The position numbers and the translations under genes were made by a program. The notes below the pieces were generated by a model that was given only the letters and a program-made list of their open reading frames with translations, did no database searches and was not told where the DNA came from. A stretch of DNA of 64,000 nucleotides from an uncultured Halobacteriales archaeon (GTDB lineage Archaea > Halobacteriota > Halobacteria > Halobacteriales > Hikarchaeaceae), in assembly GCA_964597855.1 (NCBI GenBank), contig CAZQZO010000004.1:24219-88218 (forward strand). Direction: 5' to 3'. Positions 28,890 to 58,029 of this stretch are shown in pieces; within the stretch, counting starts at the first letter, position 1; the number at the start of each line of letters is the position of its first letter.

Positions 28890-28952
28890 TTTATTTCATA
28901 CGACCCATTTGAAATCTTCACATTTTTAAACTCCAATGCCCTTCTTTAACAT

Positions 28953-33838: not shown

Positions 33839-33927
33839 GCGTATAAGCCTTTTCGAATCCCATTCCTTCCCATCCTCCTTTTACACTGACCAAAACGCTA
33901 ATCCTCTTGGCAGATTCATTTGTACCA

Positions 33928-35454
33928 ATGGCCCAAGCCTCCGATTCTGTTTCTATAGTGTCTGGAAGCAGCCTAATTTTCATAGGGACTATTTTTGAAC
34001 TTGGAATTGCTTTCATAGCAAAAATATTCATAGCCCGTTATTTGGGGGTATATGATTACGGAATCGTATCCGTTGGCATAATTATCCTTTCCATATCCAC
34101 GACATTTGTTGTTTTAGGCCTTCATCATGGTGTCGCACGATATCTCCCACGATTTAAACAAGCCCCCGATAAACGTGGCATTTTATTATCTGCTTTCTCT
34201 ATCACCACCGTAACATCTCTACTTCTTGCGTTTTGTCTATTCATTTTTGCAGATTATGTAGCAATTAATATATTCTCAAATCCCGCCTTTTCACCCATTT
34301 TAAAGGTATTTGCAGGTGCGGTCCCATTTGCAGCATTTATCCGGATGGTTATCGGAAGCATGCAAGGCGAAAAAAAGGCATCCCCCACCGTTTTTATCCA
34401 AAATATAGTTCTCCCATCCGCCCGATTCATTCTAATAATTATTGTTCTTCTAATTGGAGTATCTGCAGTCAAAGTAGCATGGGCTTATTTATTGGCATAT
34501 GCCATTGCAGCACTCGTTGGAGTTTACGCCTTATATCGATACACACAAATGTTCAAAAAAGTCACCCCAGTATACCATTTTAGAGACTTAACTTATTTCT
34601 CTATTCCTTTAGCAATCTCCACTATCATGGCTTTATTATTTGTTGATGCAGATACCCTCATTCTAGCTTATTTCCAACCCGCCACAGAGGTAGGACTCTA
34701 TGCTGTCATATATCCTCTATCTGCACTTCTTATGATTTTTCTTAACTCCTTCACTTTTCTCTCTATGCCTGCTCTCTCTGAGCTACACGCCCAAAATCAC
34801 TCTTTACGAATGCGCAAAATGTATCTAGTAATCACTAAATGGATTTTTATCCCCACATTCCCCCTCTTCCTAGCCCTTTTCTTTTTCCCCGATACGCTTA
34901 TCGAATTCTTTTTCGGAAATGACTATACCCCCGCAAGCATCGGGCTTTCCATCCTCTCGCTTGGTTTCCTTTTCCACATTCTTACTGGAGTAAATGAATC
35001 AACTTTGCTAGCTATTGGAAAAACAAAACACCTCTTGGCAAATACCACCGCGGCTGGAATTCTGAATATAATTCTAAATCTAATCCTCATTCCTCAATAT
35101 TCTTTTATCGGAGCCGCAATAGCTACAACCCTTTCGTACATATGCCTCAACTTACTACATTCCCTCGAACTATATTGGATGACCGGAATTCACCCCATTT
35201 CTAAGCCCGTCATCAAAATTTCACTTGTCGCCACCTCAATGGCTTCCTTGGTTTACCTCTTATCTATTAGAATCGATTTAAACAATCTTCAATTATTACT
35301 TTTCACACTTATCTTTGGATTAATTTACTGTATAACAATCTTTAGATCTGACGCGATGGGGGCTGAGGAAGAATTGTTACTTTCCCAAACAGAAGCTTTC
35401 TTCGGAATAAACCTAGACCCTCTTCGAAAAACAATCAATTTCTTTTCCCGATAG
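33928..35454 (+). CDS. Oligo/polysaccharide flippase (Wzx/MOP superfamily)
   Basis: About 14 TM and about 500 aa, with a polysaccharide-biosynthesis-protein-like profile, inside the glycan cluster. ATG 33928 is preferred over TTG 33907. Confidence 0.75.
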   Translation: MAQASDSVSIVSGSSLIFIGTIFELGIAFIAKIFIARYLGVYDYGIVSVGIIILSISTTFVVLGLHHGVARYLPRFKQAPDKRGILLSAFSITTVTSLLLAFCLFIFADYVAINIFSNPAFSPILKVFAGAVPFAAFIRMVIGSMQGEKKASPTVFIQNIVLPSARFILIIIVLLIGVSAVKVAWAYLLAYAIAALVGVYALYRYTQMFKKVTPVYHFRDLTYFSIPLAISTIMALLFVDADTLILAYFQPATEVGLYAVIYPLSALLMIFLNSFTFLSMPALSELHAQNHSLRMRKMYLVITKWIFIPTFPLFLALFFFPDTLIEFFFGNDYTPASIGLSILSLGFLFHILTGVNESTLLAIGKTKHLLANTTAAGILNIILNLILIPQYSFIGAAIATTLSYICLNLLHSLELYWMTGIHPISKPVIKISLVATSMASLVYLLSIRIDLNNLQLLLFTLIFGLIYCITIFRSDAMGAEEELLLSQTEAFFGINLDPLRKTINFFSR

Positions 35455-35511
35455 GTAATATTCTTCGAACCGAGCTTTTATTGTTCTTAGACGGTGCATC
35501 TTATATCATCC

Positions 35512-36597
35512 ATGGCTGCCAGAGCCGCAAGAATTGAACATTCCCGCCAACAACGACAGCGTTCTTTAGAAAATGGCCATGCAATGAAAGTTGTACATTG
35601 GAATATTTCCAAACAGAGTCATCCTATGTTCGCAACCCGTCGATATGAGGACGAGCTTTTCAAGCGATTAAATGCTACCATCGATGGCTCTGTCAGTCGA
35701 ATTTTTAGACGTGAAAGCAAGTTATTTGGAAATACGATTTCTTCTTGGTTAACTAGGTATGGGTCGGATAATTTTGATATTGCACACGCCACTTTCCAAA
35801 CAATAGCACCCGCGGCATATTTTTCTCGCCCTAAAAATTTAATCGTCACTGTACATGACATCTTGCCAATCTTTCCTAATACCCCCCATGACATTTCCAC
35901 CAGAATTCAATGGAAATTCACCCCATCTGCACTCAAAATGGCCGATGCAATAATTGCAATATCTGATTTCACTCGCAAGGAACTTATAAAGCATCTGGAA
36001 GTCGATCCTCAACTCATACACGTGGTCCCCCAAGGAGTGGATCACTCACTTTTCAAACCACTCGATAAAATTGATTCTCGAAAACAACTTGGATTGGATC
36101 CCGAATCCCTTTATGTTCTAGTTGCTTCCTCAAATCAAACCCATAAAAGAATGGATCTAGCAAAAGACATTCTACTCGAACTCAGGTCTCGCAACCCTCA
36201 TGTAAAACTACTCAAGATTGGCTATGGTGATTCTCTTCAGATGGATGGAGTTATCAATTTAGGGTGGATCCCTGAAACTAAAATGCCGCTATTGTATAAT
36301 TCTGCAGACGTCTACCTGCACACTTCTGATTATGAAGGTTTTGGGCTGCCAATTTTAGAAGCTATGGCTTGTGGAACTCCTACCATTGCCAATAATCGCG
36401 CAAGTATACCCGAAGTAATTGGCCCTGCCAATACAATCAATATGAATTCTATCCCTCCTTCGAAAATATGTGATCACATTTTTGAAAAAATGGAGTTAGA
36501 TATAGATCAACCCGCCCTCGACCGAAGTAAGACATTCACGTGGGATCAAACAGCTTCAGGTACTTTAGATATCTATAAAGAGGTGCTTGAAAATTGA
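35512..36597 (+). CDS. Glycosyltransferase family 4 (GT-B)
   Basis: The C-terminal EGFGLPILEAMACGTPTIA is the E-x7-E type motif. Start uncertain: GTG 35494, ATG 35512 or ATG 35584. A TATA-like GCTTTTATTG about 30 nt upstream of 35512 favours that start. Confidence 0.85.
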   Translation: MAARAARIEHSRQQRQRSLENGHAMKVVHWNISKQSHPMFATRRYEDELFKRLNATIDGSVSRIFRRESKLFGNTISSWLTRYGSDNFDIAHATFQTIAPAAYFSRPKNLIVTVHDILPIFPNTPHDISTRIQWKFTPSALKMADAIIAISDFTRKELIKHLEVDPQLIHVVPQGVDHSLFKPLDKIDSRKQLGLDPESLYVLVASSNQTHKRMDLAKDILLELRSRNPHVKLLKIGYGDSLQMDGVINLGWIPETKMPLLYNSADVYLHTSDYEGFGLPILEAMACGTPTIANNRASIPEVIGPANTINMNSIPPSKICDHIFEKMELDIDQPALDRSKTFTWDQTASGTLDIYKEVLEN

Positions 36598-37718
36598 GAA
36601 TTTTAAATTTATCACTCCTACGTCTAAATGATTCCCATAGTTACTATGGGGGCGCTATTGGAAGTATTGGTTATGAATTGCTCTCATCCCTTGCGTCCCT
36701 TGATGATGTGGATGTAATCTCTTTTACACAAGGAACTGATCTATCCTTTCCCGTTCCTTCTTCACTTAATTTAGTTCATGCAACTTCTTTCAGTGAAGTA
36801 AAAAAAATCATGCCAAAATATCTGGAAGACGAAAAAGAAACAATCCTTACTCACTTTTACTTCCATGAACCCGAGCACACTCCAATCTCACACTTAGCAA
36901 ATAAATTAGATTTTCCATTTGTAATCGGTATGTGTGAGTTGCCTCACTATCGCCTTAGAGACGAAGTTTCTGGTCCTTTGAAATCTCATCTACTACGGAA
37001 ACTGGGAAAATCAATTGCATACATGCCTCGATTTAAAAAAACACTTTCTCATTGCGATAGGCTCATCACCGTCAATGGCGCCGCAAAACAATATTATTCG
37101 AAATATTTCCCCCTCGACCAAATAGGAATTGTTCCCTACGGTGTAAACCAGGAATTATTCCCTTGTACTCCTCTCCCCAAAGAACCACGAATATTGGTTG
37201 TCAGTAGATTAATACAGCGCCGTGGAATCGATGCCCTCCTTGATGCATTCCCCGACATTCTCTCTGAAGTCCCCGACGTCCATCTAGATATCGTTGGAGA
37301 TGGACCTCAACATATTTCTCTAAAACAACAAGCCTCTAAAAACGGTATTTTATCTAGAGTCCATTTCCACGGGAATGTTTCCGCAAAAACTCTCGTACAA
37401 CATTACCAAAATTGCTCTGTCTTCTGCCATCTATCCGATTCCGATGGCTGGAATCAACCAGCTCTAGAGGCGATGTCAACTGGGCGGCCCGTTATTGGAA
37501 TTGACGCGCATCATAATAGCATGATATTGGATGGTATCACAGGATTTCTAATCCCTCCTGAAAAAATTAATTCCCTTTCAAATTATTTGATTCAAATTTT
37601 AGATGATGGAAACTTATGTTCTCAAATGGGGACTTCTGCACATGAATTAATCTCGACCAATTATAATTTAGCCACTGTGGCAAAACAATATGTAACCGAG
37701 TTTAAGAGGTTGCTATAA
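36594..37718 (+). CDS. Glycosyltransferase family 4 (GT-B)
   Basis: SDSDGWNQPALEAMSTGRPVIG motif. TTG start overlapping the upstream stop (TTGA). Confidence 0.8.
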   Translation: MRILNLSLLRLNDSHSYYGGAIGSIGYELLSSLASLDDVDVISFTQGTDLSFPVPSSLNLVHATSFSEVKKIMPKYLEDEKETILTHFYFHEPEHTPISHLANKLDFPFVIGMCELPHYRLRDEVSGPLKSHLLRKLGKSIAYMPRFKKTLSHCDRLITVNGAAKQYYSKYFPLDQIGIVPYGVNQELFPCTPLPKEPRILVVSRLIQRRGIDALLDAFPDILSEVPDVHLDIVGDGPQHISLKQQASKNGILSRVHFHGNVSAKTLVQHYQNCSVFCHLSDSDGWNQPALEAMSTGRPVIGIDAHHNSMILDGITGFLIPPEKINSLSNYLIQILDDGNLCSQMGTSAHELISTNYNLATVAKQYVTEFKRLL

Positions 37719-37719
37719 T

Positions 37720-38721
37720 ATGCCCACAAAAGTCACTGATATAATCACTCAGTTATGTCGCCATCTTCAAAACTTTGAAGAAGAATTTGCGATGAATTAT
37801 ATCTCAAAAAATACACTGTTACTCTTACTTTCTGAATATGGATTTGAAACTACGTCCTCTGAAAAAGAGCGAAATTCACTTCTTACAATCGTCGATGAAC
37901 TCAAAGCGGTTTCTCTAGCATTGCAAGAAAATAAAATCCCCTTCGTCATCATCAAATTCTCCGAACTACCAAAATCTGTTAGTGACATAGACATTCTAGT
38001 TCACAACACCAATAACCTCCGCCCAGTTCTACATGGGCTCGGATATTCTCTTGAAGACGATGTAGAACCTCACCGGAGCACTTATGTTAAATCGATAAAA
38101 GGAACGCGAGTTTCACTCGATTTACATCATCATCTATCTTGGCGCCGAGTGCATTATCTGGATTCTCAATCAATCATTGACCAAAGCCAACTAAAGTCCA
38201 TTGACGACATCAAGGTTCCCTTCCCTTCCCTTCCTCATGATTTCTTAATAACTGCAGCTCATTGCATTTTCAAACATAATGGAATATCTTTATTTGATAT
38301 TTTGCATATACTCTCTTTAAAAGAATCCAACCCCTCTCAGCTAAACAATTTGCCCGCCATGTATGCCATTGCAGAAGAATACCAGTGGAAACGAGAATTC
38401 GATTATTTCCTTCATTTTATATCTTCAATAGAAAGTGATCTACGCACTTCTTTTGATTCAGAATCATCACTCTTCAAAAATCTTCCCCATCAGTTCTCTC
38501 TACCCACTGTTATCTATATTAGATTCTCAAAAATTTTACGTTCACTTTCTCACAAAAACTATGCATCCACTCTTATTCAAACATATGCATATTCACTTGA
38601 TATTTTCCAATTTTTAGTAGAACAAAAACTTGGTATATCTCTAATTCATTTCTTCCGCTTCCTCGCCCGAATTAAAAAAATGATAGACACTGTTAACTCC
38701 ATTTTTAGCACTCCCAAATAA
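37720..38721 (+). CDS. Uncharacterised nucleotidyltransferase family protein (PF14907/NTP_transf_5-like), paralogue 1
   Basis: KSVSDIDILV, followed by LDLHHHLSWRR and ITAAHCIFKH, fits my memory of the PF14907 pattern (GDxDxLV ... H..l.w). Clear paralogue of the next gene. Confidence 0.5.
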   Translation: MPTKVTDIITQLCRHLQNFEEEFAMNYISKNTLLLLLSEYGFETTSSEKERNSLLTIVDELKAVSLALQENKIPFVIIKFSELPKSVSDIDILVHNTNNLRPVLHGLGYSLEDDVEPHRSTYVKSIKGTRVSLDLHHHLSWRRVHYLDSQSIIDQSQLKSIDDIKVPFPSLPHDFLITAAHCIFKHNGISLFDILHILSLKESNPSQLNNLPAMYAIAEEYQWKREFDYFLHFISSIESDLRTSFDSESSLFKNLPHQFSLPTVIYIRFSKILRSLSHKNYASTLIQTYAYSLDIFQFLVEQKLGISLIHFFRFLARIKKMIDTVNSIFSTPK

Positions 38722-38785
38722 TATCTTATATCCTCTTCCCCTTTCAACAGGATCTTATACGGTGCTAAACCAAACAACAAACAGA

Positions 38786-39805
38786 ATGCCTCTTCGTCCT
38801 AGTGAGAAATTAGTCACTTCTATAGTCAAAGAGAATGGGAAGTCAGCTTCTACTCTGCCCGAACCTCTTCCTGAACAATTTATTAAAATAAACCACCTTT
38901 CTGCAATTCTGCGAAACAAAGGGTTCGAACTCCCATTCGCGTCTACCCAATCCAATGATGCTTTCGTTCTCAGTGAAGTTTCCCGAATAATTCATGAATT
39001 GAAACATTCTGGAATCCACTGCGTTGTGATAAAGTCCCTTCCTGCTGTTGCAAAACCCATTGGGGATGTAGATATTCTGGTCGACGATCTGGAGAAAGCA
39101 GGGGAATTACTTGAACAGAATTCTTACGATGTTAGTATTGATCCCGATCCTCACAAACTCCTGTGCCTCTCCACCATTGATGGAATTCTTGTGAATATAC
39201 ATCTCCATGGAGAAATTGCCTGGAGGCGGGTAATTTACTTAGACCCAATTGATGTTATCAAATCGGCCACAGAACGAGTTTTTTATGGGATCTCTTTTCC
39301 TGTAGCTTCAGCTGAATTTGAAATCTTAATCACGTCTGCACACATGCTGTATGAACGTGGAAACATGAGGGTAAGTCTCCATAATGTTCTAGAGCTTTCC
39401 GCTCTATTTTCGTCAAAAAATATCTCTATTCCTTCTCTATTTGATATTGCATCCAAGAATGGCTGGGGCGATTCACTTATTTTATTTTTACAAACAGCAA
39501 ATGCAATTCATTATCAGATTTTTCATGAAAATTTTTCTATTTCCGAACCTGATTTTTTCAATTCCAAAATCACACTTCCTTATAATCCCTTTTTCTTCAA
39601 TTGGACTTTTTCAATTAGAACCATGATTTGGATCCGGCTAAGAAAACTATTCACCGATTTCACTTCTAAAAACTTTCGTTCTGTTTCAGACGATTTAAGT
39701 GCATACCCTCGCGATATCCTAAAGGTTTTCACCGAGAGATATGGAGTAATACATACTAAAAGGAGATTAAATAAATGGAAAAATACTATTCGATCCATAA
39801 TCTAG
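38786..39805 (+). CDS. Uncharacterised nucleotidyltransferase family protein (PF14907-like), paralogue 2
   Basis: KPIGDVDILV, IHLHGEIAWRR and ITSAHMLYERG are colinear with the upstream paralogue. ATG 38786 is preferred over GTG 38762. Confidence 0.5.
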   Translation: MPLRPSEKLVTSIVKENGKSASTLPEPLPEQFIKINHLSAILRNKGFELPFASTQSNDAFVLSEVSRIIHELKHSGIHCVVIKSLPAVAKPIGDVDILVDDLEKAGELLEQNSYDVSIDPDPHKLLCLSTIDGILVNIHLHGEIAWRRVIYLDPIDVIKSATERVFYGISFPVASAEFEILITSAHMLYERGNMRVSLHNVLELSALFSSKNISIPSLFDIASKNGWGDSLILFLQTANAIHYQIFHENFSISEPDFFNSKITLPYNPFFFNWTFSIRTMIWIRLRKLFTDFTSKNFRSVSDDLSAYPRDILKVFTERYGVIHTKRRLNKWKNTIRSII

Positions 39806-40782
39806 TTACTATTAAATCAAATGTTGGGCTCCCAATTCCCAATTATTTCTCATGCCCACCCGTGCCCAAACCTGATCTAACTGTACGCCAATGCAATTTC
39901 GATCACGACGTTCCTAGATCTTCTAAGAAAAAACGAAAAGATTACTCAGTTTGGCAGGAAGAAGGTACTCTTTTCATAGATTATGAATCTCTTGATCTCA
40001 AAATTTCCCTTAGCAATCTTGAAGGTAACACTGAGATTCAAGTCAGCGATGGTTTTGTAACTCGTTCAAAAAAACATTTGAACACTTTGGTCGGTCTTAT
40101 TGTCCAATTAAAACTTCTTGAGAAAAATTGTACTTTCTTACATTCTGGGTGCTTGACCTATGATGACGGTGCAATTTTAATCCCTGCCATGGGGAGTACT
40201 GGAAAAACTTTCACTACACTCTCTCTGATCGATGGCAAAAAACGTCTTTTTATGTCCGACGATCTCTCCATTATTAGTAATGGCGGTGATGTGTATTCTT
40301 ACCCTGGAAAAATTGGTACTGGTCCTTATGTACTCGAAAATAATGCAGTACCTGAATTATCCGTTAAGCCCCTCTTCAGTAGTAAACTTGCACGAATCCC
40401 TCTGATATCTTTGATATTTGGGAAATTCCCGTGGTTGTACAAATCCAAAAACCTTGAAATGCCGGTACATCTCACCACAGACAAATCTACATGTTCTTAT
40501 TTATTCCTTATAGTTGGAGGCTCTGAAAACAAAGCATTTCCAATATCCACTTCTCATGCTATAGTCCAGTCAATGAATCAACATCTGGATACTCACAACT
40601 TACTTGGCAGTTTCATATTAAACTATTATGCATATTTCTTTGGATATGACCTCGTTCAAAAAATAGAACAAATGCGAGAAATTCTAATTTCTGGACTCTC
40701 CTCTACTCAATGTTTCGAAATTAAATCTAATGAATTATCTAGTTACCCCACTATTGTTCTTCAAACTATAGCTGAAAATTAA
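39775..40782 (+). CDS. HPr kinase C-terminal-domain-like P-loop protein (HprK-related kinase-like), paralogue 1
   Basis: LHSGCLTYDDGAILIPAMGSTGKTFTTLSLIDGKKRLFMSDDLSII aligns by eye with the HprK core lHG..v...g.GvLi.G.SG.GKS..aL.Li.rGh.LvaDD. Overlaps the upstream gene by 31 nt. Confidence 0.55.
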   Translation: MEKYYSIHNLVTIKSNVGLPIPNYFSCPPVPKPDLTVRQCNFDHDVPRSSKKKRKDYSVWQEEGTLFIDYESLDLKISLSNLEGNTEIQVSDGFVTRSKKHLNTLVGLIVQLKLLEKNCTFLHSGCLTYDDGAILIPAMGSTGKTFTTLSLIDGKKRLFMSDDLSIISNGGDVYSYPGKIGTGPYVLENNAVPELSVKPLFSSKLARIPLISLIFGKFPWLYKSKNLEMPVHLTTDKSTCSYLFLIVGGSENKAFPISTSHAIVQSMNQHLDTHNLLGSFILNYYAYFFGYDLVQKIEQMREILISGLSSTQCFEIKSNELSSYPTIVLQTIAEN

Positions 40783-40785
40783 TTT

Positions 40786-41760
40786 TCATTCATCTCCTCT
40801 TGATAATCTATCATCTCCAATAATATATTTTATCATGCCTTTGATAAAAAAATAATTCCCAATCGAATTAAGCAAAAAATGTGGAAACACATATGCAGAT
40901 TGATACTTTACGCTTCTATAAATTATCTTTATCATTTTAATACAAAATGGAACCCCTACTATCAGGAAAATCGATTTTCCGGTGATAGAAAATGCACCCA
41001 GACTTACAATAATGCTAGCTATGTACCCGATGGGCATTAAAACAAAGAGATCTTTTAATCCACTTTTCCAACCCGCATATTCTACATATGGGAAAAATGT
41101 TCTTCCATACCATTCCTGCTGCTTGTAAAATTCTTTAATCGAATCAAATTTTCCATATCTAGTGCATTTCTCCTCTAAAATAATTTTACCTCCTTTTTCT
41201 TCTACTATTTTTCTGACTTTATTATAAAATGTCCAATCCTCTCTAAATCCAAGCGCTTCGAAACCACCTGCCAATTCAAAAATGTCCTTTCGATAGAAGT
41301 GAGCAGGAGGGGGCGGTGCATTAGTATTTTTCTTGATCAACTTTGTTATATCTTCCACTGGTGAGTATGCTTTCATTAATACACTATCTCTAATGGAATT
41401 TGCCACCGTTCTAACCGCCACCATCTCGGAGTCTTCATTAAAATGGATCATTGCATTAGAAACAAAATTGTGACTCAAAACCAGATCCCCATCAATAAAA
41501 CACAACACGTCCACATTTCCACTTTTTATCGCATATTCTGCCCCCTGGTTCCTAGCCATTGGCAATGATTTATTCTCACCTTTTTCTAGAATGACAATAG
41601 CACCATTTTTTTCAGATATTTCCACGGTTTTATCCTTCGAACCACCATCTACTACAATAATTTCTTTGTTTGGGTACTCATCGTCATTCAAACTTTGAAT
41701 TAATTCTCCTATCTTGCTCTCTTCATTCAATGTCGGGATTACGACTACACAATTTAACAT
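40786..41760 (-). CDS. Glycosyltransferase family 2 with C-terminal TM segments (dolichyl-phosphate sugar synthase-like)
   Basis: VVIPTLNEE, VVDGGSKDKT and FIDGDL (DxD) motifs, with a hydrophobic C-terminal third. Confidence 0.85.
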   Translation of the reverse strand: MLNCVVVIPTLNEESKIGELIQSLNDDEYPNKEIIVVDGGSKDKTVEISEKNGAIVILEKGENKSLPMARNQGAEYAIKSGNVDVLCFIDGDLVLSHNFVSNAMIHFNEDSEMVAVRTVANSIRDSVLMKAYSPVEDITKLIKKNTNAPPPPAHFYRKDIFELAGGFEALGFREDWTFYNKVRKIVEEKGGKIILEEKCTRYGKFDSIKEFYKQQEWYGRTFFPYVEYAGWKSGLKDLFVLMPIGYIASIIVSLGAFSITGKSIFLIVGVPFCIKMIKIIYRSVKYQSAYVFPHFLLNSIGNYFFIKGMIKYIIGDDRLSRGDE

Positions 41761-41899
41761 AACATATTGTCTCCACTACCTTCTCTTAACTCTGCATCAC
41801 TTTACTTCCGCGTTTTGATATATTTTCTGTTCCGTTCCCCTTAAAAAAGAAACCGTATAACCTAACTATATCCTAATCCCACCTATTGTAACAACAACC

Positions 41900-42928
41900 A
41901 TGTCTTCTCCACCCTCGAGCAGTCCTCACTATTACTCTATACACGACATCATCCATATCCGATCGAACGTCGATCTTCCCATTCCTGACTATTTCCGTAT
42001 CTCTTCCCCACCTACTTCTTTTAACTTTGATATTGATGTATCTGAGGAATCTATCTCTATGCCTTTTACAGAAACAGAAATGCATCGGTGTAGCATCTTC
42101 TTTGTTGGACACAATGAATCCCAACTTGCAATCGATTACAGGCTTCCCTTTCTAAATGTAAAACTTCTATTAACCGATCTTGAAAATACTACTAAAATTT
42201 CATTTACAAAAGATTTCAAAAGATTTGGAGATTTGACAAATTTGTTCAATACAATTCTGTTATTTAAATTTATCCAAAAAGGGCACACTCTAGTCCATTC
42301 TGGTTGTATCTCCACTTCTGATAGTTGTTATTTAATTTCTGGAATGCGAGATACTGGAAAAACATCAACTGTCCTGTCTCTAGTTGACGGAATCGACATC
42401 AAATTTATGTCCGACGATCTAACCGTAATATCCAAAAATGGCCAAGCATTTTCATATCCCACTCGTGTAGGCATTTCTCCTTACACTTTGACAGGCACTT
42501 CGATCTCGTACACGCCCCCTGCCTGGAAACAATGGGTTGCAAAACATCAGCTGCTGTTATTTGGACTTGAAAGCGTATTTAAATTTGAACTCAGCAAACG
42601 AATAGACGTTCCTTCTTCCCTCATAGATACCTCTGGAACGATCAGCAACGTATTCCTTTTGCGATCTGCAAATAAAAATGAAATTTCATCAATTCCATCT
42701 TCAGTCGCAGTTCAAAAATTACTCATGACCACTACTGAACTAATTGATCCTTTCCGAATCTATTCTCTCAATTTTTATGCTTATTACACGGATTTTGATT
42801 CTGCAATGCTATTTGAAAAAGAAAAAGAAATCATTGAACATGCACTTTCAAACGTTACTTGCTACGACGTTTGTGCGAACAATGTAAAAGAATTCCACAA
42901 ACTTATACAGAATCAAGTCGACCTATGA
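41900..42928 (+). CDS. HPr kinase C-terminal-domain-like P-loop protein, paralogue 2
   Basis: VHSGCISTSDSCYLISGMRDTGKTSTVLSLVDGIDIKFMSDDLTVIS. Shares the N-terminal YYSIH(D/N)(I/L).(H/T)I(R/K)SNV.LPIP.YF motif with paralogue 1. Confidence 0.55.
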   Translation: MSSPPSSSPHYYSIHDIIHIRSNVDLPIPDYFRISSPPTSFNFDIDVSEESISMPFTETEMHRCSIFFVGHNESQLAIDYRLPFLNVKLLLTDLENTTKISFTKDFKRFGDLTNLFNTILLFKFIQKGHTLVHSGCISTSDSCYLISGMRDTGKTSTVLSLVDGIDIKFMSDDLTVISKNGQAFSYPTRVGISPYTLTGTSISYTPPAWKQWVAKHQLLLFGLESVFKFELSKRIDVPSSLIDTSGTISNVFLLRSANKNEISSIPSSVAVQKLLMTTTELIDPFRIYSLNFYAYYTDFDSAMLFEKEKEIIEHALSNVTCYDVCANNVKEFHKLIQNQVDL

Positions 42929-43659
42929 AAAATATCATTGCAACAATTCGTGGTGTATTAGAATACCAAATTATAGCGCATTTAGTAGGCATTTGGATAA
43001 TTATAACTGGGGGGAAAGTCAAATCTAGAGGGATTTTACTAAATGTAAAAAATAATAGAATTACCAACTCTCTGAAGTACGATTTAGTCTCTGATAAATT
43101 CGAAGAAAACGAATTCTATCTACTGGAAAAGCATCTCTTGCCAAATTTTGATGTTGTGGAACTTGGAGGTGGACTCGGATTTCTATCTTGCTATGTTGGA
43201 CAGAAAATAAAACCTAAAAATAAACACATTGTGATCGAACCAAATCCCTTCATATTGCCCACCCTGAACTCTAATCGCATGTTGAATGGTTGTGACTTTG
43301 AAATACTCAATCATGCCTATTCTCCTACACCCGGATTTGTAACATTCGATGCAAGTGGTCCCTTCGAATCAAGTCGTATTAATGTAAATTCTCCCGATAC
43401 GATCCAAGTAGAATCTATCACCCTTGGTCATATTATCGATCAATACAAACTAGATCAGTTCCTCTTACTCCTTGATATAGAAGGGGACGAATTCGATTTA
43501 ATCCAACACGAATTTGACATCATCGTACGCCACTGCCCTTTGATAATAATCGAATTTCATGACGAATTTGGATTAATTCAACCCGCGGTGTCCAAATTAG
43601 AAAGTTCAGGATATTCCGTTTTTGAGAATGGGAATGTATATGCCTTTGTCCGAGATTAG
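42925..43659 (+). CDS. FkbM family SAM-dependent methyltransferase
   Basis: VVELGGGLGFLS SAM motif, HIVIEPNP, and LLLLDIEGDEFDLI...IIIEFH typical of FkbM. ATGA overlap with the upstream gene; the track start 42859 is rejected. Confidence 0.7.
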   Translation: MKNIIATIRGVLEYQIIAHLVGIWIIITGGKVKSRGILLNVKNNRITNSLKYDLVSDKFEENEFYLLEKHLLPNFDVVELGGGLGFLSCYVGQKIKPKNKHIVIEPNPFILPTLNSNRMLNGCDFEILNHAYSPTPGFVTFDASGPFESSRINVNSPDTIQVESITLGHIIDQYKLDQFLLLLDIEGDEFDLIQHEFDIIVRHCPLIIIEFHDEFGLIQPAVSKLESSGYSVFENGNVYAFVRD

Positions 43660-43674: not shown

Positions 43675-44667
43675 CTATACTAACCGCCCAATTGCATTTC
43701 TAAACTCTTTTGCTTGATTTTTTTCAGTTAGGCCCCACACACATTGTCTATGATCTTTTCCCCTTTCAATCCTTTCTACCTCTCCCATCTCATGACAATT
43801 GACCATGCAATTGTATATTCCATCTTCTGTACTCGAACTCACCTGATCTTTTGGAACCAATTCTTTAGTACCCACTTGCTCTGTAACAATAGTTGGAGTG
43901 GCAGAGAGCATCGCCTCTAAACTAGCCACTGGGAATGCATCTGCCACGGACGGTTGAATATACACACTTGCCCTCTCTAATACCTGCACCAACTCTTTCA
44001 CAGATACTTTCCCCGGTGTTTCTATGCCTTCTCCTATTGCATAACTCTCATTTTCATGACCCGAACCTATTAAAATTAATTTCGATTTTGGATCTGTATC
44101 CTCTCTAAACCTCCCGAATGATTTACATAATCGGTGATAGTTCTTCGAAGGCCTAGCATTTCCCACAGAAACCACCACAAATTCATCTTGGTTCGATAGA
44201 GGTTCTAACCTCGATAGTGGCCCATATTTTTCATTTTCAATGGGTGGGTGGACAATTTCATATGGTAAAGAGCCTATATATGGCTCACACCATTGATATG
44301 CAAGATCACTCACCGAAATGCACCCGTTTATCGTTCTATTTGTTACCGGTTTGGCCATTTTCCATAAATATCTAGTTTTCCTATAATTCAAGGTATGGAA
44401 TGTTTCATCTGCTATCAAAAATATTGCCTGGGATCTCCTATCTTTTATATTATTATAAACAAGCACTGTTTGCAACACCGAAGACCCCTCTGCAACTACT
44501 ATTTCGTACCCTCTACGTAACTTGAGACCCGTTTCTACACGTCTAACAATGCTATTGCCCACTCTTCCCCCTTCAAAGTGCTCATATTCACAATTTATGG
44601 AGTCCCCAAACACCTTATGGGCGTAGTGGGGCCCTTCTCCTTGATAAACCATACACACTCGCCACAT
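43675..44667 (-). CDS. Glycosyltransferase family 4 (GT-B)
   Basis: SVADAFPVASLEAMLSATPTIVTE C-terminal motif and a GT-B sized protein. Confidence 0.75.
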   Translation of the reverse strand: MWRVCMVYQGEGPHYAHKVFGDSINCEYEHFEGGRVGNSIVRRVETGLKLRRGYEIVVAEGSSVLQTVLVYNNIKDRRSQAIFLIADETFHTLNYRKTRYLWKMAKPVTNRTINGCISVSDLAYQWCEPYIGSLPYEIVHPPIENEKYGPLSRLEPLSNQDEFVVVSVGNARPSKNYHRLCKSFGRFREDTDPKSKLILIGSGHENESYAIGEGIETPGKVSVKELVQVLERASVYIQPSVADAFPVASLEAMLSATPTIVTEQVGTKELVPKDQVSSSTEDGIYNCMVNCHEMGEVERIERGKDHRQCVWGLTEKNQAKEFRNAIGRLV

Positions 44668-44728: not shown

Positions 44729-47605
44729 ATGAAAAACAGCCTTACATCTAGTCTCTCCCAAACTTCACTTGCACACTTCATTGAAAAATGGTGTGCCGAA
44801 ATATCTCTCATTTTTATCTTTCTATTTATGCTTTGGATTCGAATGAGGGCGTATTCTTTATATTTTTTCAACCACCCTTATACGGGTGATCAGATATATC
44901 TAGCTGGAAACGATCCTTGGTATCATCTCAGAATGGTCACTTATACCACTCATAACTGGCCATTTAATATGCCCTTTGACCCTTGGACAAATTTCCCTTA
45001 TGGGACTCAAGTAGGTCAATTTGGAACGTTATATGACCAAATTGTAGCCACATTTGCACTAATTATCGGAGTAGGAAGCCCATCCACTGAGTTAATCATA
45101 ACAGTACTCATCATCGCTCCTGCACTCATTGGCTCTTTAACTGTATTCCCTACTTATCTTATAGCCAAACATTTTGGAGGAAAAAGTGGAGGTATCTTCG
45201 CCGCATTGTTACTGGCTTTATTACCGGGGGTATTTTTACAGCGAAGCATAGCAGGTTATTCAGATCATCATGTCGCAGAGGTATTTTTCCAAGCCATTGC
45301 AATACTGACCTTGTTAATTGCAATCACCGTTTTTCTAGATGACAAACCCGTGTGGGAATTTGTTGAACTAAAGGACTTTCCCAAATTAAAGAGGTCTTTA
45401 ATATGGGGGGGACTGGTAGGGCTGACGACTTTACTTTACCTTTTGGTGTGGCCCCCTGGGTTACTTCTAATAGGGATCTTCGCTATATTCTTTTTCGTTA
45501 GATCGAATATGGATCATATCTCCGGAAATACTCCCGATTATATTGCATTTCTCGGCGTGGTCAGTATGGCTTTTGTAGGATTGGCACTTCTCTTTTTTGT
45601 AAATATACCTTACCCTGAAGAACTTACGTCTGTATTAAATTTCAGAGTTACTAACATTTCTCTTTTACACTCCTCAATGGCTCTCTCCATAGCGATAGGA
45701 TGTGCATTTCTTGCATGGCTCTCTAGATTTTTCTCTAACAATAATCTCCCAAAATGGGGATATCCACTTACCCTTCTTGCTCTACTATCATTTGCAGCTC
45801 TAATTCTCTATTTAATTTTACCCTATGTATTTGAAATTTTATATAACAATATAACCCGAACTTTTGGTTTTAATATTTCCGCAGGAACTAGGACCATTGA
45901 AGAAGCCAATTCTTTTTTATCACTCGCAGATCCTGCTTTCGGTATTAGTCGGGTCGATGTAATCCGCCGAGAATACGGTTATGCTTTTTTCCTGGCACTT
46001 GCTGCTCCATTTTTTATCTTGAAGGATTATTTAAACGAAAAAAAATACGAATCTGGTATTTTACTTCTGCTCATTTGGTCCCTTCTAATTGGGGTTTCAA
46101 CTTTCACTCAAGCTAGGTTCAATTACTATCTAGCAATCCCTGTTGTGGTTCTAAACGCATATGTGTTAAAATGCATTTTCCAACAATTTAATATAGATAA
46201 ACTTCGGTCTATAAAGCCATACCAATTTGGAGTCATTCTCGTAATTTTTCTTGTTGTACTTGCCCCCTTGGCAATCCCTATGCAAATAGGATCTGATGAT
46301 AATGGTCCTATCCATACTTCAACAGCTTTCGAAATCTCCATGGATGTCCCTCTTAGCGAAGTATATAACTGGGACCCTGCGCTCCAATGGATGAAACTAG
46401 AAACCCCACTAGTAGGAAACTATGGTGGTTCAAACAATCCTCTTGATTATTATGGAACTGTAGAATCTAACTATCTTGGAATAAATGCCACAGGTGATTT
46501 CGCATATCCCGATGGGGCCTATGGTGTAATGTCATGGTGGGACTATGGACATTGGATAACCTTGAGGGCCGAACGAATTCCGGTTTCTAATCCCTTCCAG
46601 GAAGGTGCAGTAGTTTCAGCAAATTATCTACTTTCCCAAAGTGAATCTGAATCTGAAAGTATTCTTTCTACTATTGACGATGGATCTGGAGTCCGATATA
46701 TTGTTTTAGATTGGCAAATAGTATCTTCCGGAGCAAAACTCCATGGCCCTGCAACATTCAAAGAAGGAGTTTCTGTTACGAACTATCAAAACTATTTGAT
46801 TGAACAAGTTCCTGGGGGGTATGGACTACGTCACATTCTTCACCCCTCTTCTTATTACAACTCCCAAATGGTTCGGCTTTACCACTACCATGGAAGTTCT
46901 ATAGCCCCAACACCTCTTGTCATTGATTGGGATACCGTACCCGGACTTAACCCCGAATACTACAAACTGTCTCAAACCCAGCCTGGGGATCCTGATATGT
47001 TTCCAGTTTTCGAAACAATCGAAGAGGCTCAGAGTTTCACTCAAGAAAATCCCACTTCTCAGATAGGTGGAATTGGAACATTTCCAACAGAACCAATCCC
47101 TGCACTTAAGCACTATAGGTTAGTTTATGCTACGCCAAATGCAATTCAAATTTCCCCTTATTATGTGCATACCACCTCTTCTTGGGTTAAAATTTTTGAG
47201 CGTGTTCCTGGTGCAACCATTACTGGCACGGCCCCGCCAAATACTCCTATATCTGGGGCAGTAGCAATGCATGTTCCCACAACCAATTCTACATTTCGAT
47301 ATATCCAACATACTACCTCTGATGCTTCTGGAAAATTCACGATGGTAGTTCCTTACTCCACAATAGGCTATGATGAACTTGGACCTCAAGACGGTTATAC
47401 AAATGTCGATGTACGCGCCGTGGGTCCTTATTATATTACCACCGAATTCGGAACATATTCGGGGACCGTTCATGTACCTGATTCTTCTGTAAATGGTATC
47501 GGACCCGAACTCACTATTGACTTGGAAAAAGATTTCTTTGAACTGTGCAATTGCGTTTGGGACCGTGAGATTGGCACAATTAAGCCTAAGGAAAATACAT
47601 CATGA
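44729..47605 (+). CDS. aglB: Archaeal oligosaccharyltransferase AglB (STT3 family)
   Basis: 958 aa and about 13 TM. First-loop GNDPWYH, the catalytic WWDYGHW (WWDYG) motif, and a large C-terminal soluble domain. Confidence 0.9.
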   Translation: MKNSLTSSLSQTSLAHFIEKWCAEISLIFIFLFMLWIRMRAYSLYFFNHPYTGDQIYLAGNDPWYHLRMVTYTTHNWPFNMPFDPWTNFPYGTQVGQFGTLYDQIVATFALIIGVGSPSTELIITVLIIAPALIGSLTVFPTYLIAKHFGGKSGGIFAALLLALLPGVFLQRSIAGYSDHHVAEVFFQAIAILTLLIAITVFLDDKPVWEFVELKDFPKLKRSLIWGGLVGLTTLLYLLVWPPGLLLIGIFAIFFFVRSNMDHISGNTPDYIAFLGVVSMAFVGLALLFFVNIPYPEELTSVLNFRVTNISLLHSSMALSIAIGCAFLAWLSRFFSNNNLPKWGYPLTLLALLSFAALILYLILPYVFEILYNNITRTFGFNISAGTRTIEEANSFLSLADPAFGISRVDVIRREYGYAFFLALAAPFFILKDYLNEKKYESGILLLLIWSLLIGVSTFTQARFNYYLAIPVVVLNAYVLKCIFQQFNIDKLRSIKPYQFGVILVIFLVVLAPLAIPMQIGSDDNGPIHTSTAFEISMDVPLSEVYNWDPALQWMKLETPLVGNYGGSNNPLDYYGTVESNYLGINATGDFAYPDGAYGVMSWWDYGHWITLRAERIPVSNPFQEGAVVSANYLLSQSESESESILSTIDDGSGVRYIVLDWQIVSSGAKLHGPATFKEGVSVTNYQNYLIEQVPGGYGLRHILHPSSYYNSQMVRLYHYHGSSIAPTPLVIDWDTVPGLNPEYYKLSQTQPGDPDMFPVFETIEEAQSFTQENPTSQIGGIGTFPTEPIPALKHYRLVYATPNAIQISPYYVHTTSSWVKIFERVPGATITGTAPPNTPISGAVAMHVPTTNSTFRYIQHTTSDASGKFTMVVPYSTIGYDELGPQDGYTNVDVRAVGPYYITTEFGTYSGTVHVPDSSVNGIGPELTIDLEKDFFELCNCVWDREIGTIKPKENTS

Positions 47606-48537: not shown

Positions 48538-48600
48538 TTTGATTTTCCTCAAGACTTTCCAATCGATAGGCTCATTTTTTTGTATTGTCAGTCTCAACCA

Positions 48601-58004: not shown

Positions 58005-58016
58005 TTCTCAATCCGC

Positions 58017-58029
58017 AATATATTTGGGA
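58017..58029 (-). promoter_or_regulatory. Copy 1 of shared ATCCC(A/T)AATATAT motif, upstream of top6B
   Basis: Reads ATCCCAAATATAT on the minus strand and ends 13 nt before the top6B ATG. Matches 12 of 13 positions with the copy upstream of gyrB, in the same orientation relative to each gene. Confidence 0.25.

What the first reader, a model, noticed from the sequence alone, without database searches (positions are those of the whole stretch)
37720..42928. Duplicated PF14907-like nucleotidyltransferase plus HPr-kinase-like P-loop pairs wired into an archaeal N-glycosylation operon
**Seen in sequence:**
- Two paralogous proteins of about 335 aa carry (S/G)D(I/V)DILV and H-x-H...W-R-R motifs, which look like the uncharacterised nucleotidyltransferase family.
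- Two paralogous proteins of about 340 aa have a core, (L/V)HSGC...G..LI.(A/G)M...GKT...LSL(I/V)DG....FMSDDL..IS, that looks like the HPr kinase/phosphorylase C-terminal P-loop domain.
- They are tightly packed with GT4, GT2 and FkbM genes: a 1-nt gap at 37718/37720, a 31-nt overlap at 39775-39805, and an ATGA overlap at 42925.
- AglB lies only 1.8 kb downstream.

**From memory:** HprK-like kinases paired with this nucleotidyltransferase fold act in bacterial lasso-peptide tailoring, where a C-terminal Ser is phosphorylated and the phosphate is then glycosylated. HprK-related kinases also occur in exopolysaccharide loci.

**Inference:** I know of no described role for such a pair in archaeal Agl pathways. 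The pair may install a phosphate-linked or nucleotidyl-linked decoration on the dolichol-linked glycan or on a surface protein. The duplication suggests two sequential or alternative modifications.
Basis: partly seen in the sequence, partly recalled or inferred. Interest (0 to 1): 0.78.

Follow-up and report, generated by a model that had tools for sequence, protein, structure and literature searches.

The report
Kinase–nucleotidyltransferase–methyltransferase glycan-tailoring cassette beside archaeal AglB
A deep-sea archaeon's protein-glycosylation gene cluster carries an uncharacterised, widely shared set of genes (two kinase-like, two nucleotidyltransferase-like, one methyltransferase, plus glycosyltransferases) that probably adds a phosphate-based decoration to surface sugars, a chemistry not yet described for archaeal N-glycans.

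Summary
All four genes, their motifs, the tight packing and AglB 1.8 kb downstream are as described.

- **A1/A2:** both are PF14907 members above Pfam's cut-off.
- **B1/B2:** they match no Pfam family. A confident model (pLDDT 93.6) and transitive profile hits place them in the PEPCK/HPr-kinase P-loop superfamily. The His…GKT…DD catalytic set is intact.
- **Organism:** a Marine Group IV (Hikarchaeia) archaeon.

The interpretation needs correcting. This is not a window-specific duplication wired to AglB. It is a local variant of a recurrent, horizontally spread cassette, GT4 > B' > A > B > FkbM, found in archaea and bacteria. Among 48 non-redundant loci, A occurs in 30, FkbM in 26 and AglB in only 7. 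The A2-type paralogue carries His where every other A sequence compared has Asp, the likely third metal-binding residue. No PqqD or lasso-maturation genes were found; short precursor ORFs were not searched.

Best reading: cytoplasmic kinases phosphorylate a sugar on a lipid-linked glycan. The nucleotidyltransferase then extends that phosphate, as PsmK/PsmN do in lasso peptides, and FkbM methylates. The chemistry is inferred, not shown. This is an undescribed variant of a known enzyme pairing and is moderately interesting.

The parts
31731..32795 (-). NAD-dependent epimerase/dehydratase-like gene at the upstream edge of the glycosylation cluster
   Evidence: PF01370, E 2e-5
32792..33838 (-). 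GFO/IDH/MocA sugar oxidoreductase
   Evidence: PF01408 and PF22725. The same gene flanks the cluster in L080.
33907..35454 (+). Wzx/MurJ-type oligosaccharide flippase
   Evidence: PF01943, E 6e-27. Conserved next to GT4a in L080.
35494..36597 (+). GT4a glycosyltransferase
   Evidence: PF00534 and PF13439. Co-occurs with the cassette in 21 of 48 loci.
36594..37718 (+). GT4b glycosyltransferase, the GT most tightly linked to the B/A genes
   Evidence: PF00534, E 1e-31. Orthologues at E 1e-96 to 1e-121 sit beside B in Methanoperedenaceae, Planctomycetia and metagenome loci. Present in 8 of 10 loci that have at least 5 kb of flank on both sides.
37720..38721 (+). A1: PF14907 (NTP_transf_5) Pol-beta-type nucleotidyltransferase with all three acidic residues (SDIDILV … SLDLH)
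   Evidence: PF14907, 45.2 bits against a cut-off of 31.2. The Asp in the xDxH strand is kept, as in every single-A locus.
38762..39805 (+). A2: PF14907 paralogue with DxD intact but His at the position of the third acidic residue (NIHLH). It may be a catalytically altered partner of A1. Its true start may be the ATG at 38786.
   Evidence: PF14907, 49.4 bits. 27% identical to A1. His at this position is shared by the A2-type sequences of L004, L006 and L003. The model core resembles TM1012 and the LnuA nucleotidyltransferase. Homologues start at MPLRP.
39775..40782 (+). B1: PEPCK/HprK-superfamily P-loop kinase-like protein, a second copy of the core type
   Evidence: 32% identical to B2. H…GKT…DD is intact. 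Falls in the core B clade of the tree. Only 11 close relatives were found.
40786..41760 (-). GT2 with a hydrophobic C-terminal stretch, resembling dolichyl-phosphate hexose synthases (AglJ-like), inserted between B1 and B2
   Evidence: PF00535, E 9e-22. AglJ model hit at 2e-13, far below its cut-off. Hydrophobic C-terminus read from the translation. The position between the two B genes is conserved in L003-L007 and L023-L027.
41900..42928 (+). B2: the core PEPCK/HprK-superfamily P-loop kinase-like protein of the cassette
   Evidence: AF2 pLDDT 93.6. Foldseek: PEPCK 5e-8, HprK/P 6e-4. G153, K154, T155, D172 and D173 are invariant and H133 nearly so. 57 close relatives. 5102 cluster representatives match the profile.
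42925..43659 (+). FkbM-family methyltransferase, start overlapping the B2 stop (ATGA)
   Evidence: TIGR01444, 63.6 bits against a cut-off of 37.7. ATGA overlap. B > FkbM adjacency is the commonest neighbour relation in the census.
43675..44667 (-). GT4c glycosyltransferase
   Evidence: PF00534, E 1.5e-18. Conserved next to AglB in L004-L007 and L080.
44729..47605 (+). AglB oligosaccharyltransferase (archaeosortase-A-associated STT3 type)
   Evidence: TIGR04154, 790.5 bits against a cut-off of 450. PF02516, PF22627 and PF18079.
47602..48537 (+). DUF368/VCA0040-like polyprenyl-phosphate translocase-like gene, overlapping the AglB stop by 4 nt
   Evidence: PF04018, E 3e-51. The same AglB-adjacent position occurs in L080.
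48580..49272 (+). HAD-type (Hydrolase_3) phosphatase at the downstream edge of the cluster
   Evidence: PF08282, E 4e-29. Conserved in L080.

Best explanation
The four genes belong to a conserved, horizontally mobile glycan-tailoring cassette: GT4, two B kinases, an A nucleotidyltransferase and an FkbM methyltransferase. In this Marine Group IV archaeon the cassette sits in the AglB N-glycosylation cluster.

Proposed mechanism (inferred):
1. On the cytoplasmic face, GT4b adds a sugar to the dolichyl-phosphate-linked glycan.
2. The soluble B proteins are ATP-dependent kinases of the PEPCK/HPr-kinase superfamily. Acting as a paralogue pair or hetero-oligomer, they phosphorylate a hydroxyl of that sugar or of a Dol-P-hexose made by the interposed GT2.
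3. A1, probably partnered with the altered A2, uses its Pol-beta-type two-metal site to attach a further group (hexose or nucleotidyl) to that phosphate. This is the role PsmN plays after PsmK in pseudomycoidin.
4. FkbM, translationally coupled to B2, O-methylates the product.
5. The finished glycan is flipped by Wzx and transferred to protein by AglB.

Shown: the family and fold assignments, the intact catalytic residues, the conserved synteny and the glycan-cluster context. Inferred: the substrate, the order of steps and the chemical nature of the added group.
For: **Fold and family**
- B2 model: pLDDT 93.6. Its top PDB matches are ATP-PEPCK (E 5e-8, TM about 0.5 over both domains) and HprK/P.
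- G153, K154, T155, D172 and D173 are invariant and H133 nearly so in 61 relatives. The H…GKT…DD set is kept in nearly all B paralogues compared.
- Family representatives hit HprK_rel_A (98 of 136), HprK_rel_B (79), HPr(Ser) kinase (47), ScmC (41), PEPCK (9) and the FomB small-molecule kinase (8).
- A1 and A2 score above the PF14907 cut-off. The A2 model core matches nucleotidyltransferases, including LnuA, which adenylylates lincosamide antibiotics.

**Context**
- The order GT4b > B' > A > B > FkbM recurs in many independent contigs.
- Among 48 non-redundant loci, A occurs in 30, FkbM in 26 and GT4b in 20. Of 10 loci with at least 5 kb of flank on both sides, FkbM is in 8, GT4b in 8, A in 6 and AglB in 4.
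- Gene content is kept despite inversions (L080; L003).
- Every annotated context is glycan biosynthesis: GTs, Wzx, sugar aminotransferases and dehydratases, PMT_2 GT-C enzymes, an exosortase, AglB.
- No PqqD or lasso-maturation genes were found in the window.

**Precedent**
- An HprK-family kinase followed by an 'uncharacterised nucleotidyltransferase' builds Ser-O-phosphate-hexose. Mutating that enzyme's DxD motif abolishes the modification (PMC6993621; PMC8498205).
Against: - There is no biochemical data for any member, and the substrate is unknown.
- A is absent from some loci with long flanks (GoM-Arc1 L001/L008, Hadarchaeota L011). The kinase step does not always need it.
- A2 lacks the likely third carboxylate, and its model is only moderate (pLDDT 64.7).
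- B1 and B2 themselves score far below every curated HprK-type model.
- B's N-terminal domain resembles the small-molecule-binding domain of PEPCK. That fits a free metabolite substrate as well as a glycan.
- To my knowledge no phosphodiester-decorated archaeal N-glycan has been reported. No supporting paper was found either.
- PsmN's own chemistry is unresolved. The authors allow that it may instead make a substrate for a separate glycosyltransferase.
Confidence: 0.4

Rival explanations
1. Activated-donor synthesis. The B kinases phosphorylate a free small molecule (a sugar, polyol or acid). A converts the phosphate ester into a nucleotide-activated donor, and the second B may phosphorylate again. 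The co-conserved GT4b then transfers the group onto the glycan, and FkbM methylates it. This is the logic of LicA/LicC/LicD phosphocholine addition and of the Campylobacter O-methyl-phosphoramidate pathway (kinase, nucleotidyltransferase, kinase, methyltransferases); both comparisons come from my own knowledge.
For: - Over both domains B resembles PEPCK, a small-molecule kinase.
- Some relatives hit the FomB phosphonate-monophosphate kinase model.
- PF14907 has been noted next to a kinase in a phosphonate cluster (PMC8942020).
- GT4b is the gene most tightly linked to B and A.
- The pseudomycoidin authors allow that PsmN 'produces a substrate used by' a glycosyltransferase.
Against: - To my knowledge, known NDP-sugar and CDP-alcohol pyrophosphorylases use other folds, not the Pol-beta fold.
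- Some loci lack A yet keep B, FkbM and GT4b.
- GT4 enzymes normally use ordinary NDP-sugars.
- The cassette contains no gene that would make a special precursor.
Confidence: 0.25
2. Action on the lipid carrier or on a polyprenyl-phosphate monosaccharide. B phosphorylates dolichol, Dol-P or Dol-P-hexose, so that a periplasmic-side GT-C enzyme or AglB handles a modified carrier or a phospho-sugar.
For: - A distant B clade lies between a GT2-GtrA fusion (polyprenyl-phosphate sugar synthase type) and a PMT_2 GT-C enzyme.
- PMT_2 also sits next to or near B in L081 and L001.
- In the window an AglJ-like GT2 lies between B1 and B2.
- HprK-type lasso kinases can add phosphate onto phosphate, giving polyphosphorylated products.
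Against: - B has no obvious hydrophobic segment in its sequence. To my knowledge, known polyprenol kinases are integral membrane proteins.
- This reading does not explain the tight link to A and FkbM.
Confidence: 0.15
3. Peptide or protein substrate. As in lasso-peptide tailoring or HPr phosphorylation, B phosphorylates a Ser or Thr of a secreted or surface protein or a ribosomal peptide, and A extends that phosphate. The link to glycosylation genes is indirect.
For: - The only characterised kinase/PF14907 pair acts on a peptide Ser.
- Relatives hit the ScmC and HprK_rel_A/B models. To my knowledge those families sit in peptide-modification-type cassettes.
Against: - No PqqD, lasso cyclase or protease, or radical-SAM genes occur in the window or in any annotated related locus. 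Short precursor ORFs were not searched systematically.
- Every context is glycan biosynthesis.
- B1 and B2 score far below the HprK_rel_A/B cut-offs.
Confidence: 0.08
4. Non-catalytic or regulatory role. The B and A proteins are nucleotide-binding scaffolds or regulators of the glycosyltransferases, not tailoring enzymes.
For: - A2 has lost the likely third carboxylate.
- Multiple paralogues per locus, up to three B genes, could reflect structural hetero-oligomers.
Against: - The full catalytic set H…GKT…DD is kept in nearly all B paralogues compared across distant lineages.
- A1-type proteins keep all three acidic residues.
Confidence: 0.05

Closest known systems
PsmK/PsmN (and PadeK) tailoring enzymes of the lasso peptides pseudomycoidin and paeninodin
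   Same: An HPr-kinase-family kinase is paired with an 'uncharacterised nucleotidyltransferase' whose DxD motif is essential. The kinase makes an O-phosphate, and the nucleotidyltransferase is needed to put hexose(s) on that phosphate (PMC6993621; PMC8498205).
   Different: Here there are no PqqD/B1, B2 protease or lasso cyclase genes. The context is GT4, GT2, FkbM, Wzx and AglB. There are two B paralogues and a strictly associated methyltransferase. B1 and B2 score only 13-16 bits on the HprK-related models.
HprK-related kinase A/B (TIGR04352, TIGR04355) and ScmC (TIGR04249, PF27840)
   Same: Similar size (about 280-350 aa) and the same H…GK[ST]…DD core. Many members of the B profile family hit these models weakly to moderately (98, 79 and 41 of 136). 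One close relative carries a weak PF27840 hit.
   Different: B1 and B2 are far below the curated cut-offs (13.5 and 15.8 bits against 200). To my knowledge those families sit in PqqD or radical-SAM peptide-type cassettes. This family sits in glycan clusters.
ATP-dependent phosphoenolpyruvate carboxykinase (PEPCK) and HPr kinase/phosphorylase
   Same: Best structural matches. PEPCK aligns over both domains (E 5e-8, TM about 0.5) and HprK/P aligns over its C-terminal domain (E 6e-4). The arrangement His, then P-loop GKT, then DD has the same spacing as my recollection of the HprK and PEPCK active sites.
   Different: About 10-13% identity and no sequence-level hit to any PDB chain. B is much shorter than PEPCK (342 aa against more than 500). 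The genomic context has nothing to do with gluconeogenesis or the PTS.
WbdD of E. coli O9a (kinase plus methyltransferase that caps a GT4-built polymannan with methyl phosphate); own knowledge
   Same: A kinase is functionally coupled to a methyltransferase in a glycan pathway built by GT4 enzymes. B > FkbM adjacency is the most conserved link in the cassette, and the two genes overlap by ATGA in the window.
   Different: WbdD's kinase has the eukaryotic-protein-kinase fold and its methyltransferase is not FkbM-type. WbdD has no nucleotidyltransferase partner.
LicA/LicC/LicD phosphocholine decoration, fukutin/FKRP, and the Campylobacter MeOPN pathway; own knowledge
   Same: Kinase plus nucleotidyltransferase logic for placing phosphodiester-linked groups on surface glycans. 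LicD and fukutin use a nucleotidyltransferase-type fold to transfer a phospho-group to a sugar hydroxyl.
   Different: Unrelated protein families were detected here. A matches PF14907, and no LicD-type family was among its Pfam hits at E ≤ 1. The resemblance is one of pathway logic only.

Membership tests
PF14907 NTP_transf_5 (uncharacterised nucleotidyltransferase) | Score above Pfam's gathering threshold (31.2 bits) | tested here: met
   A1 45.2 bits and A2 49.4 bits. Close homologues carry PF14907 in the precomputed annotation.
Pol-beta-superfamily nucleotidyltransferase (catalytic competence) | Two carboxylates in a DxD strand plus a third acidic residue on a neighbouring strand | tested here: inconclusive
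   DxD is present in both proteins (SDIDILV, GDVDILV). A1-type sequences keep Asp in xDxH. A2-type sequences have His there (NIHLH), in all four A2-type sequences. That this column holds the third catalytic residue is inferred from strand position and conservation, not from a solved structure. Fold match to TM1012 and LnuA at E 6e-5 to 4e-4, from a model with pLDDT 64.7.
HPr kinase/phosphorylase (PF07475, TIGR00679) | Significant match to the curated HprK models | tested here: not met
   B1 and B2 have no Pfam hit at E ≤ 1. Only 8 of 61 close relatives hit PF07475, the best at E 0.009. TIGR00679 is hit only by more distant family representatives (47 of 136, best 1.4e-10).
HprK-related kinase A/B (TIGR04352, TIGR04355) | Score above the curated cut-off (200 bits) | tested here: not met
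   B1 13.5 bits and B2 15.8 bits.
PEPCK/HprK-like P-loop kinase superfamily | The fold, plus the conserved His, Walker-A GK[ST] and a following DD pair | tested here: met
   Foldseek: PEPCK 5e-8 and HprK/P 6.4e-4, from a model with pLDDT 93.6. G153, K154, T155, D172 and D173 are invariant and H133 nearly so. The set is kept in nearly all paralogues compared.
Lasso-peptide (RiPP) tailoring system | Precursor peptide, PqqD-like B1, B2 protease and Asn-synthetase-like cyclase in the neighbourhood | tested here: not met
   The 38 window ORFs scanned show no PqqD, B2 protease or cyclase. None appear in the annotated related loci. Short precursor ORFs were not searched systematically.
Archaeal N-glycosylation (agl) cluster | AglB oligosaccharyltransferase with flanking GTs and a flippase | tested here: met
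   AglB TIGR04154 790.5 bits against a cut-off of 450. Wzx, three GT4s, a GT2 and a DUF368 gene lie within 13 kb. The same set occurs in L004, L006, L023, L027 and L080.
Kinase activity of B and transfer activity of A on a glycan substrate | Demonstrated ATP-dependent phosphorylation, then transfer onto the phosphate | not testable with these tools
   Needs enzymology or glycan mass spectrometry.

The most novel reading that the evidence does not exclude
The GT4 / B' / A / B / FkbM cassette is a previously unrecognised, horizontally mobile module. It installs a methylated phosphodiester-type cap (for example phospho-hexose or methyl phosphate) on lipid-linked glycans. This would be the first phosphate-linked decoration described for archaeal N-glycans. 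It would also define a new, large family of glycan kinases within the PEPCK/HPr-kinase superfamily: more than 5000 50%-identity clusters match the profile, and the members tested, including B1 and B2, have no significant Pfam hit.
Probability: 0.3. Interest if true: 0.75.

Novelty: new variant of a known kind. Interest (0 to 1): 0.58.

Why it matters
- **Archaeal N-glycans.** They are chemically very diverse, but no phosphodiester-type tailoring pathway has been assigned to them. This cassette offers a concrete candidate of five genes.
- **An unannotated family.** The B family is large (5102 cluster representatives at E ≤ 1e-3). The members tested, including B1 and B2, have no significant Pfam hit. 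It appears consistently in glycan and lipid-linked-sugar contexts in both archaea and bacteria. Defining its substrate would annotate thousands of genes.
- **Wider chemistry.** A confirmed function would extend the kinase/PF14907 nucleotidyltransferase chemistry, known only from lasso peptides, to polysaccharides and glycoproteins.
- **Lateral exchange.** Near-identical gene order in Planctomycetia, Methanoperedenaceae and other archaeal and uncultured lineages documents exchange of surface-glycan tailoring modules between domains.

Tried and rejected
- **Sequence searches against the PDB.** B1, B2 and the 61-sequence profile gave only chance hits (flavodoxin, ORC1, rhodopsin).
- **Direct Pfam scan of B1 and B2.** No family matched. 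The superfamily link needed the fold search and transitive scans.
- **Literature searches.** Searches for 'ScmC' returned only unrelated acronyms. That PF27840/ScmC stands for the SynChlorMet cassette protein comes from the NCBIfam name. Searches for HPr kinase with aglB, or with exopolysaccharide and exosortase, found nothing.
- **Promoter and terminator scan.** The bacterial-type scan gave counts at or below the shuffled expectation, and it does not apply to an archaeon.
- **A2 structure.** The model is only moderate (pLDDT 64.7), because just 11 mostly close homologues were available. Only its nucleotidyltransferase core is used as evidence.
- **Genuine HPr kinase: rejected.** There are no curated-model hits, and no PTS or HPr genes appear among the 38 window ORFs scanned.
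- **RiPP cassette: rejected.** No PqqD, cyclase or radical-SAM neighbours were found anywhere.
- **Recent tandem duplication of an A-B pair: rejected.** The two B genes and the two A genes each diverged long ago (27-32% identity). The tree places B1 and B2 in separate subclades shared with other lineages.

Full report
**1. What is in the sequence**

The region holds a tightly packed set of genes.

| Gene | Coordinates | Strand |
|---|---|---|
| GT4a | 35494-36597 | + |
| GT4b | 36594-37718 | + |
| A1 | 37720-38721 | + |
| A2 | 38762-39805 | + |
| B1 | 39775-40782 | + |
| GT2 | 40786-41760 | − |
| B2 | 41900-42928 | + |
| FkbM | 42925-43659 | + |
| GT4c | 43675-44667 | − |
| AglB | 44729-47605 | + |

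There is a 1-nt gap between GT4b and A1. A2 and B1 overlap by 31 nt. An ATGA stop/start overlap joins B2 and FkbM.

- A1 and A2 are paralogues: 27% identity, E 1e-29.
- B1 and B2 are paralogues: 32% identity, E 4e-51.

The flanks complete a typical archaeal N-glycosylation cluster. Upstream lie a Wzx-type flippase (33907-35454), a GFO/IDH/MocA oxidoreductase and an epimerase. Downstream lie a DUF368/VCA0040-like polyprenyl-phosphate translocase-like gene, which overlaps the AglB stop, and a HAD phosphatase.

The other 18 window ORFs scanned are housekeeping genes: cytochrome oxidase, UbiA, ABC transporters, aldolase, FBPase, DNA ligase, topoisomerase VI and gyrase. None has any link to RiPPs or to the PTS.

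**2. Organism**

B2 is 98% identical to a gene of 'Halobacteriales archaeon ALOHA_A2.5_47' and 82% identical to one of 'Marine Group IV archaeon HikBin5'. The window therefore comes from a Marine Group IV (Hikarchaeia) archaeon. This is the marine sister lineage of haloarchaea described in PMC7599335.

**3. The A proteins**

Both score above the gathering threshold of PF14907, NTP_transf_5 (45.2 and 49.4 bits against 31.2).

The A2 model is only moderate (pLDDT 64.7). Its core still matches Pol-beta-type nucleotidyltransferases: TM1012 at E 6e-5 and LnuA, a lincosamide adenylyltransferase, at E 4e-4.

Both paralogues keep the DxD strand. An alignment of all A-family genes recovered from related loci shows a split:
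- A1-type proteins, and the single A of one-A loci, keep an Asp in the later xDxH strand (SLDLH, AVDVH, IDVH, VDLH).
- A2-type proteins in four loci have His there (NIHLH, AFHLH).

I take that column to hold the third metal-binding carboxylate. This rests on strand position and conservation, so it is inference. On that reading A2 is a catalytically altered partner rather than a second equivalent enzyme.

**4. The B proteins**

B1 and B2 match no Pfam family. Their hits to HprK_rel_A and HprK_rel_B are weak (13.5 and 15.8 bits against a cut-off of 200). PDB sequence searches were empty.

Homologue searches found 11 close relatives of B1 and 57 of B2. In a 61-sequence alignment, Y12, H15, G153, K154, T155, D172, D173 and P187 are invariant, and H133 is nearly so.

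With this alignment AlphaFold gave a confident model (pLDDT 93.6, pTM 0.91). Its best PDB matches are ATP-dependent PEPCKs over both domains (E 5e-8, TM about 0.5). HPr kinase/phosphorylase also matches significantly (E 6.4e-4).

A profile search of 1.84 billion cluster representatives found 5102 relatives at E ≤ 1e-3 and 1427 at E ≤ 1e-10. Of 136 sampled members, the NCBIfam hits were:

| Model | Members hitting |
|---|---|
| HprK_rel_A | 98 |
| HprK_rel_B | 79 |
| HPr(Ser) kinase | 47 |
| ScmC | 41 |
| PEPCK | 9 |
| FomB phosphonate kinase | 8 |

Among the 61 close relatives, 8 weakly hit Hpr_kinase_C and 7 hit PEPCK_ATP.

B is not a member of any curated HprK family. The H…GKT…DD set is retained in nearly all B paralogues examined, so these look like active phosphotransferases. 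Neither B sequence shows an obvious hydrophobic segment (read), which suggests soluble cytoplasmic proteins.

**5. Gene-neighbourhood census**

I collected 81 related loci from genomes, metagenomes and exact-protein look-ups. I annotated 79 of them and the window with profiles built from the window's own proteins.

A recurrent syntenic unit emerges: GT4b > B' > A > B > FkbM, often followed by GT4a-like genes. It appears in L017, L031, L032, L035, L037, L043, L046, L049, L053, L055 and L081. A Planctomycetia variant has the order GT4b > B' > FkbM > A > B (L009, L044, L048; Pfam-checked).

| Neighbour | 48 non-redundant loci with a close B relative | 10 loci with ≥ 5 kb on both sides |
|---|---|---|
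| A | 30 | 6 |
| FkbM | 26 | 8 |
| GT4b | 20 | 8 |
| AglB | 7 | 4 |
| ≥ 2 B genes | 21 | 8 |

Many of the 48 contigs are only 1-5 kb long, so those counts are lower bounds.

A neighbour-joining tree separates three groups:
- a B' clade, always placed after GT4b;
- a core clade, placed between A and FkbM;
- a distant clade.

B1 and B2 of the window both fall in the core clade. The Marine Group IV arrangement is thus a local variant with two core-type B genes, two A genes and a GT2 inserted between the B genes.

Gene content survives inversions. L080 has the order AglB < GT4c > FkbM < GT2 < B2 > B1 < A2 < A1 < GT4b < GT4a < Wzx. L003 is also rearranged. This argues for a functional unit.

A is not obligatory. 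GoM-Arc1 Methanoperedenaceae have GT4b … B, B, B, FkbM and no A.

The distant clade (Dormiibacterota, Limnocylindria, soil metagenomes) has a single B. In the two loci with gene annotation it follows a GT2-GtrA fusion, and in one of them a PMT_2 GT-C enzyme follows B. PMT_2 is also adjacent to B in L081.

One relative sits near an exosortase. No annotated locus contains PqqD, lasso or radical-SAM genes.

**6. Mechanism**

What is shown:
- kinase-type and nucleotidyltransferase-type folds with catalytic residues;
- strict embedding in pathways for lipid-linked glycan synthesis;
- conserved adjacency GT4b-B', A-B and B-FkbM.

The one experimentally studied pairing of these two enzyme types is in lasso peptides. 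There an HprK-family kinase phosphorylates a C-terminal Ser. The 'uncharacterised nucleotidyltransferase' PsmN, whose DxD motif is essential, is required to add one or two hexoses to that phosphate (PMC6993621; PMC8498205).

By analogy I propose this sequence of steps:
1. The B proteins phosphorylate a sugar hydroxyl on the dolichyl-phosphate-linked intermediate built by GT4b, or on a Dol-P-hexose made by the interposed GT2.
2. A1, with A2 as partner, extends the phosphate.
3. FkbM methylates the product.
4. The glycan is flipped by Wzx and transferred by AglB.

The tight B-FkbM coupling also recalls WbdD, the kinase-methyltransferase that caps a GT4-built polymannan with methyl phosphate (my own knowledge).

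Rivals:
- **Donor synthesis (0.25).** A kinase, nucleotidyltransferase, kinase route to an activated donor used by GT4b, following LicA/LicC or MeOPN logic. It is favoured by B's PEPCK-like two-domain fold and by the FomB hits.
- **Carrier or Dol-P-hexose (0.15).** Suggested by the GT2-GtrA/PMT_2 contexts.
- **Peptide or protein substrate (0.08).** Disfavoured by the absence of any RiPP genes.
- **Non-catalytic role (0.05).** Disfavoured by the conserved catalytic residues.

**7. Comparison and novelty**

The enzyme pairing is known from lasso peptides, and the folds are known. Three things are new:
- the B family itself (B1, B2 and the relatives scanned have no significant Pfam hit, yet thousands of relatives exist);
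- its consistent glycan context;
- the conserved five-gene cassette shared by archaea and bacteria, and its presence in AglB clusters.

I found no paper that connects these families with archaeal N-glycosylation. I classify the finding as a new variant of a known kind.

Its interpretation is partly supported. The phosphate-linked decoration idea remains the best hypothesis. The 'duplicated pairs wired into an AglB operon' framing should be replaced by 'local variant of a mobile GT4/B/A/B/FkbM cassette, with one degenerate A paralogue'.

Noticed in passing
window 47602-48537 (+), overlapping the AglB stop at 47605; also L080 3091-4059: A DUF368/VCA0040-like gene (PF04018, 'undecaprenyl phosphate translocase-like') directly follows AglB and overlaps it by 4 nt. 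The adjacency is conserved in a 70%-identity relative. This suggests that dolichyl-phosphate recycling is coupled to the oligosaccharyltransferase in these archaea.
   Followed up: partly
L020 6766-10709; L021; L022; L012-L015; L065-L076: A distant clade of the B family (about 373-414 aa; Dormiibacterota, Limnocylindria, soil metagenomes) occurs as a single gene. In L020 it lies between a GT2-GtrA_DPMS_TM fusion and a PMT/PMT_2 GT-C enzyme, and in L021 it again follows that GT2-GtrA fusion. It has no A, FkbM or GT4b. This looks like a separate three-gene lipid-linked-sugar system.
   Followed up: partly
L001 7940-11005 and L008 (Candidatus Methanoperedenaceae GoM-Arc1 genomes): Three tandem B paralogues, all with intact H…GKT…DD, lie between GT4b and an apparently split FkbM (86-aa and 116-aa calls). 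There is no A gene. A 38-aa ORF lies just upstream (L001 7527-7643).
   Followed up: partly
L003 770-2128, 8854-10218, 11397-12728; L017 14905-16251: In some relatives the cassette is interleaved with arylsulfotransferase-like, sulfatase-family and Phosphodiest (alkaline-phosphatase superfamily) genes. This hints at further anionic (sulfate or phosphate) glycan modifications in those loci.
   Followed up: no
L009, L044, L048 (Planctomycetia-type) compared with the archaeal loci: GT4a, GT4b, B', A, B and FkbM occur in nearly the same order in a Planctomycetia MAG and in archaea. GT4b matches at E 7e-119 to the window protein. This indicates inter-domain transfer of the whole cassette.
   Followed up: partly
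window 1-64000: GC skew is negative in every 2-kb bin of the window (about -0.02 to -0.32; cumulative -5.7) whatever the gene orientation. G+C dips to 36-38% across the A/B/GT2 genes (38-44 kb) against about 40-44% elsewhere.
   Followed up: no
window 26881-30011: Two tandem luciferase-like monooxygenase genes and an Amidohydro_2 gene lie just upstream of the glycosylation cluster. No relation to it is apparent.
   Followed up: no
window 1182-2642 (+) and 15556-16557 (+): Two sizeable ORFs (486 aa and 333 aa) have no Pfam match at E ≤ 1e-4.
   Followed up: no
window 54547-62797: Topoisomerase VI (A and B subunits) and DNA gyrase (GyrB, GyrA) are encoded side by side on opposite strands.
   Followed up: no
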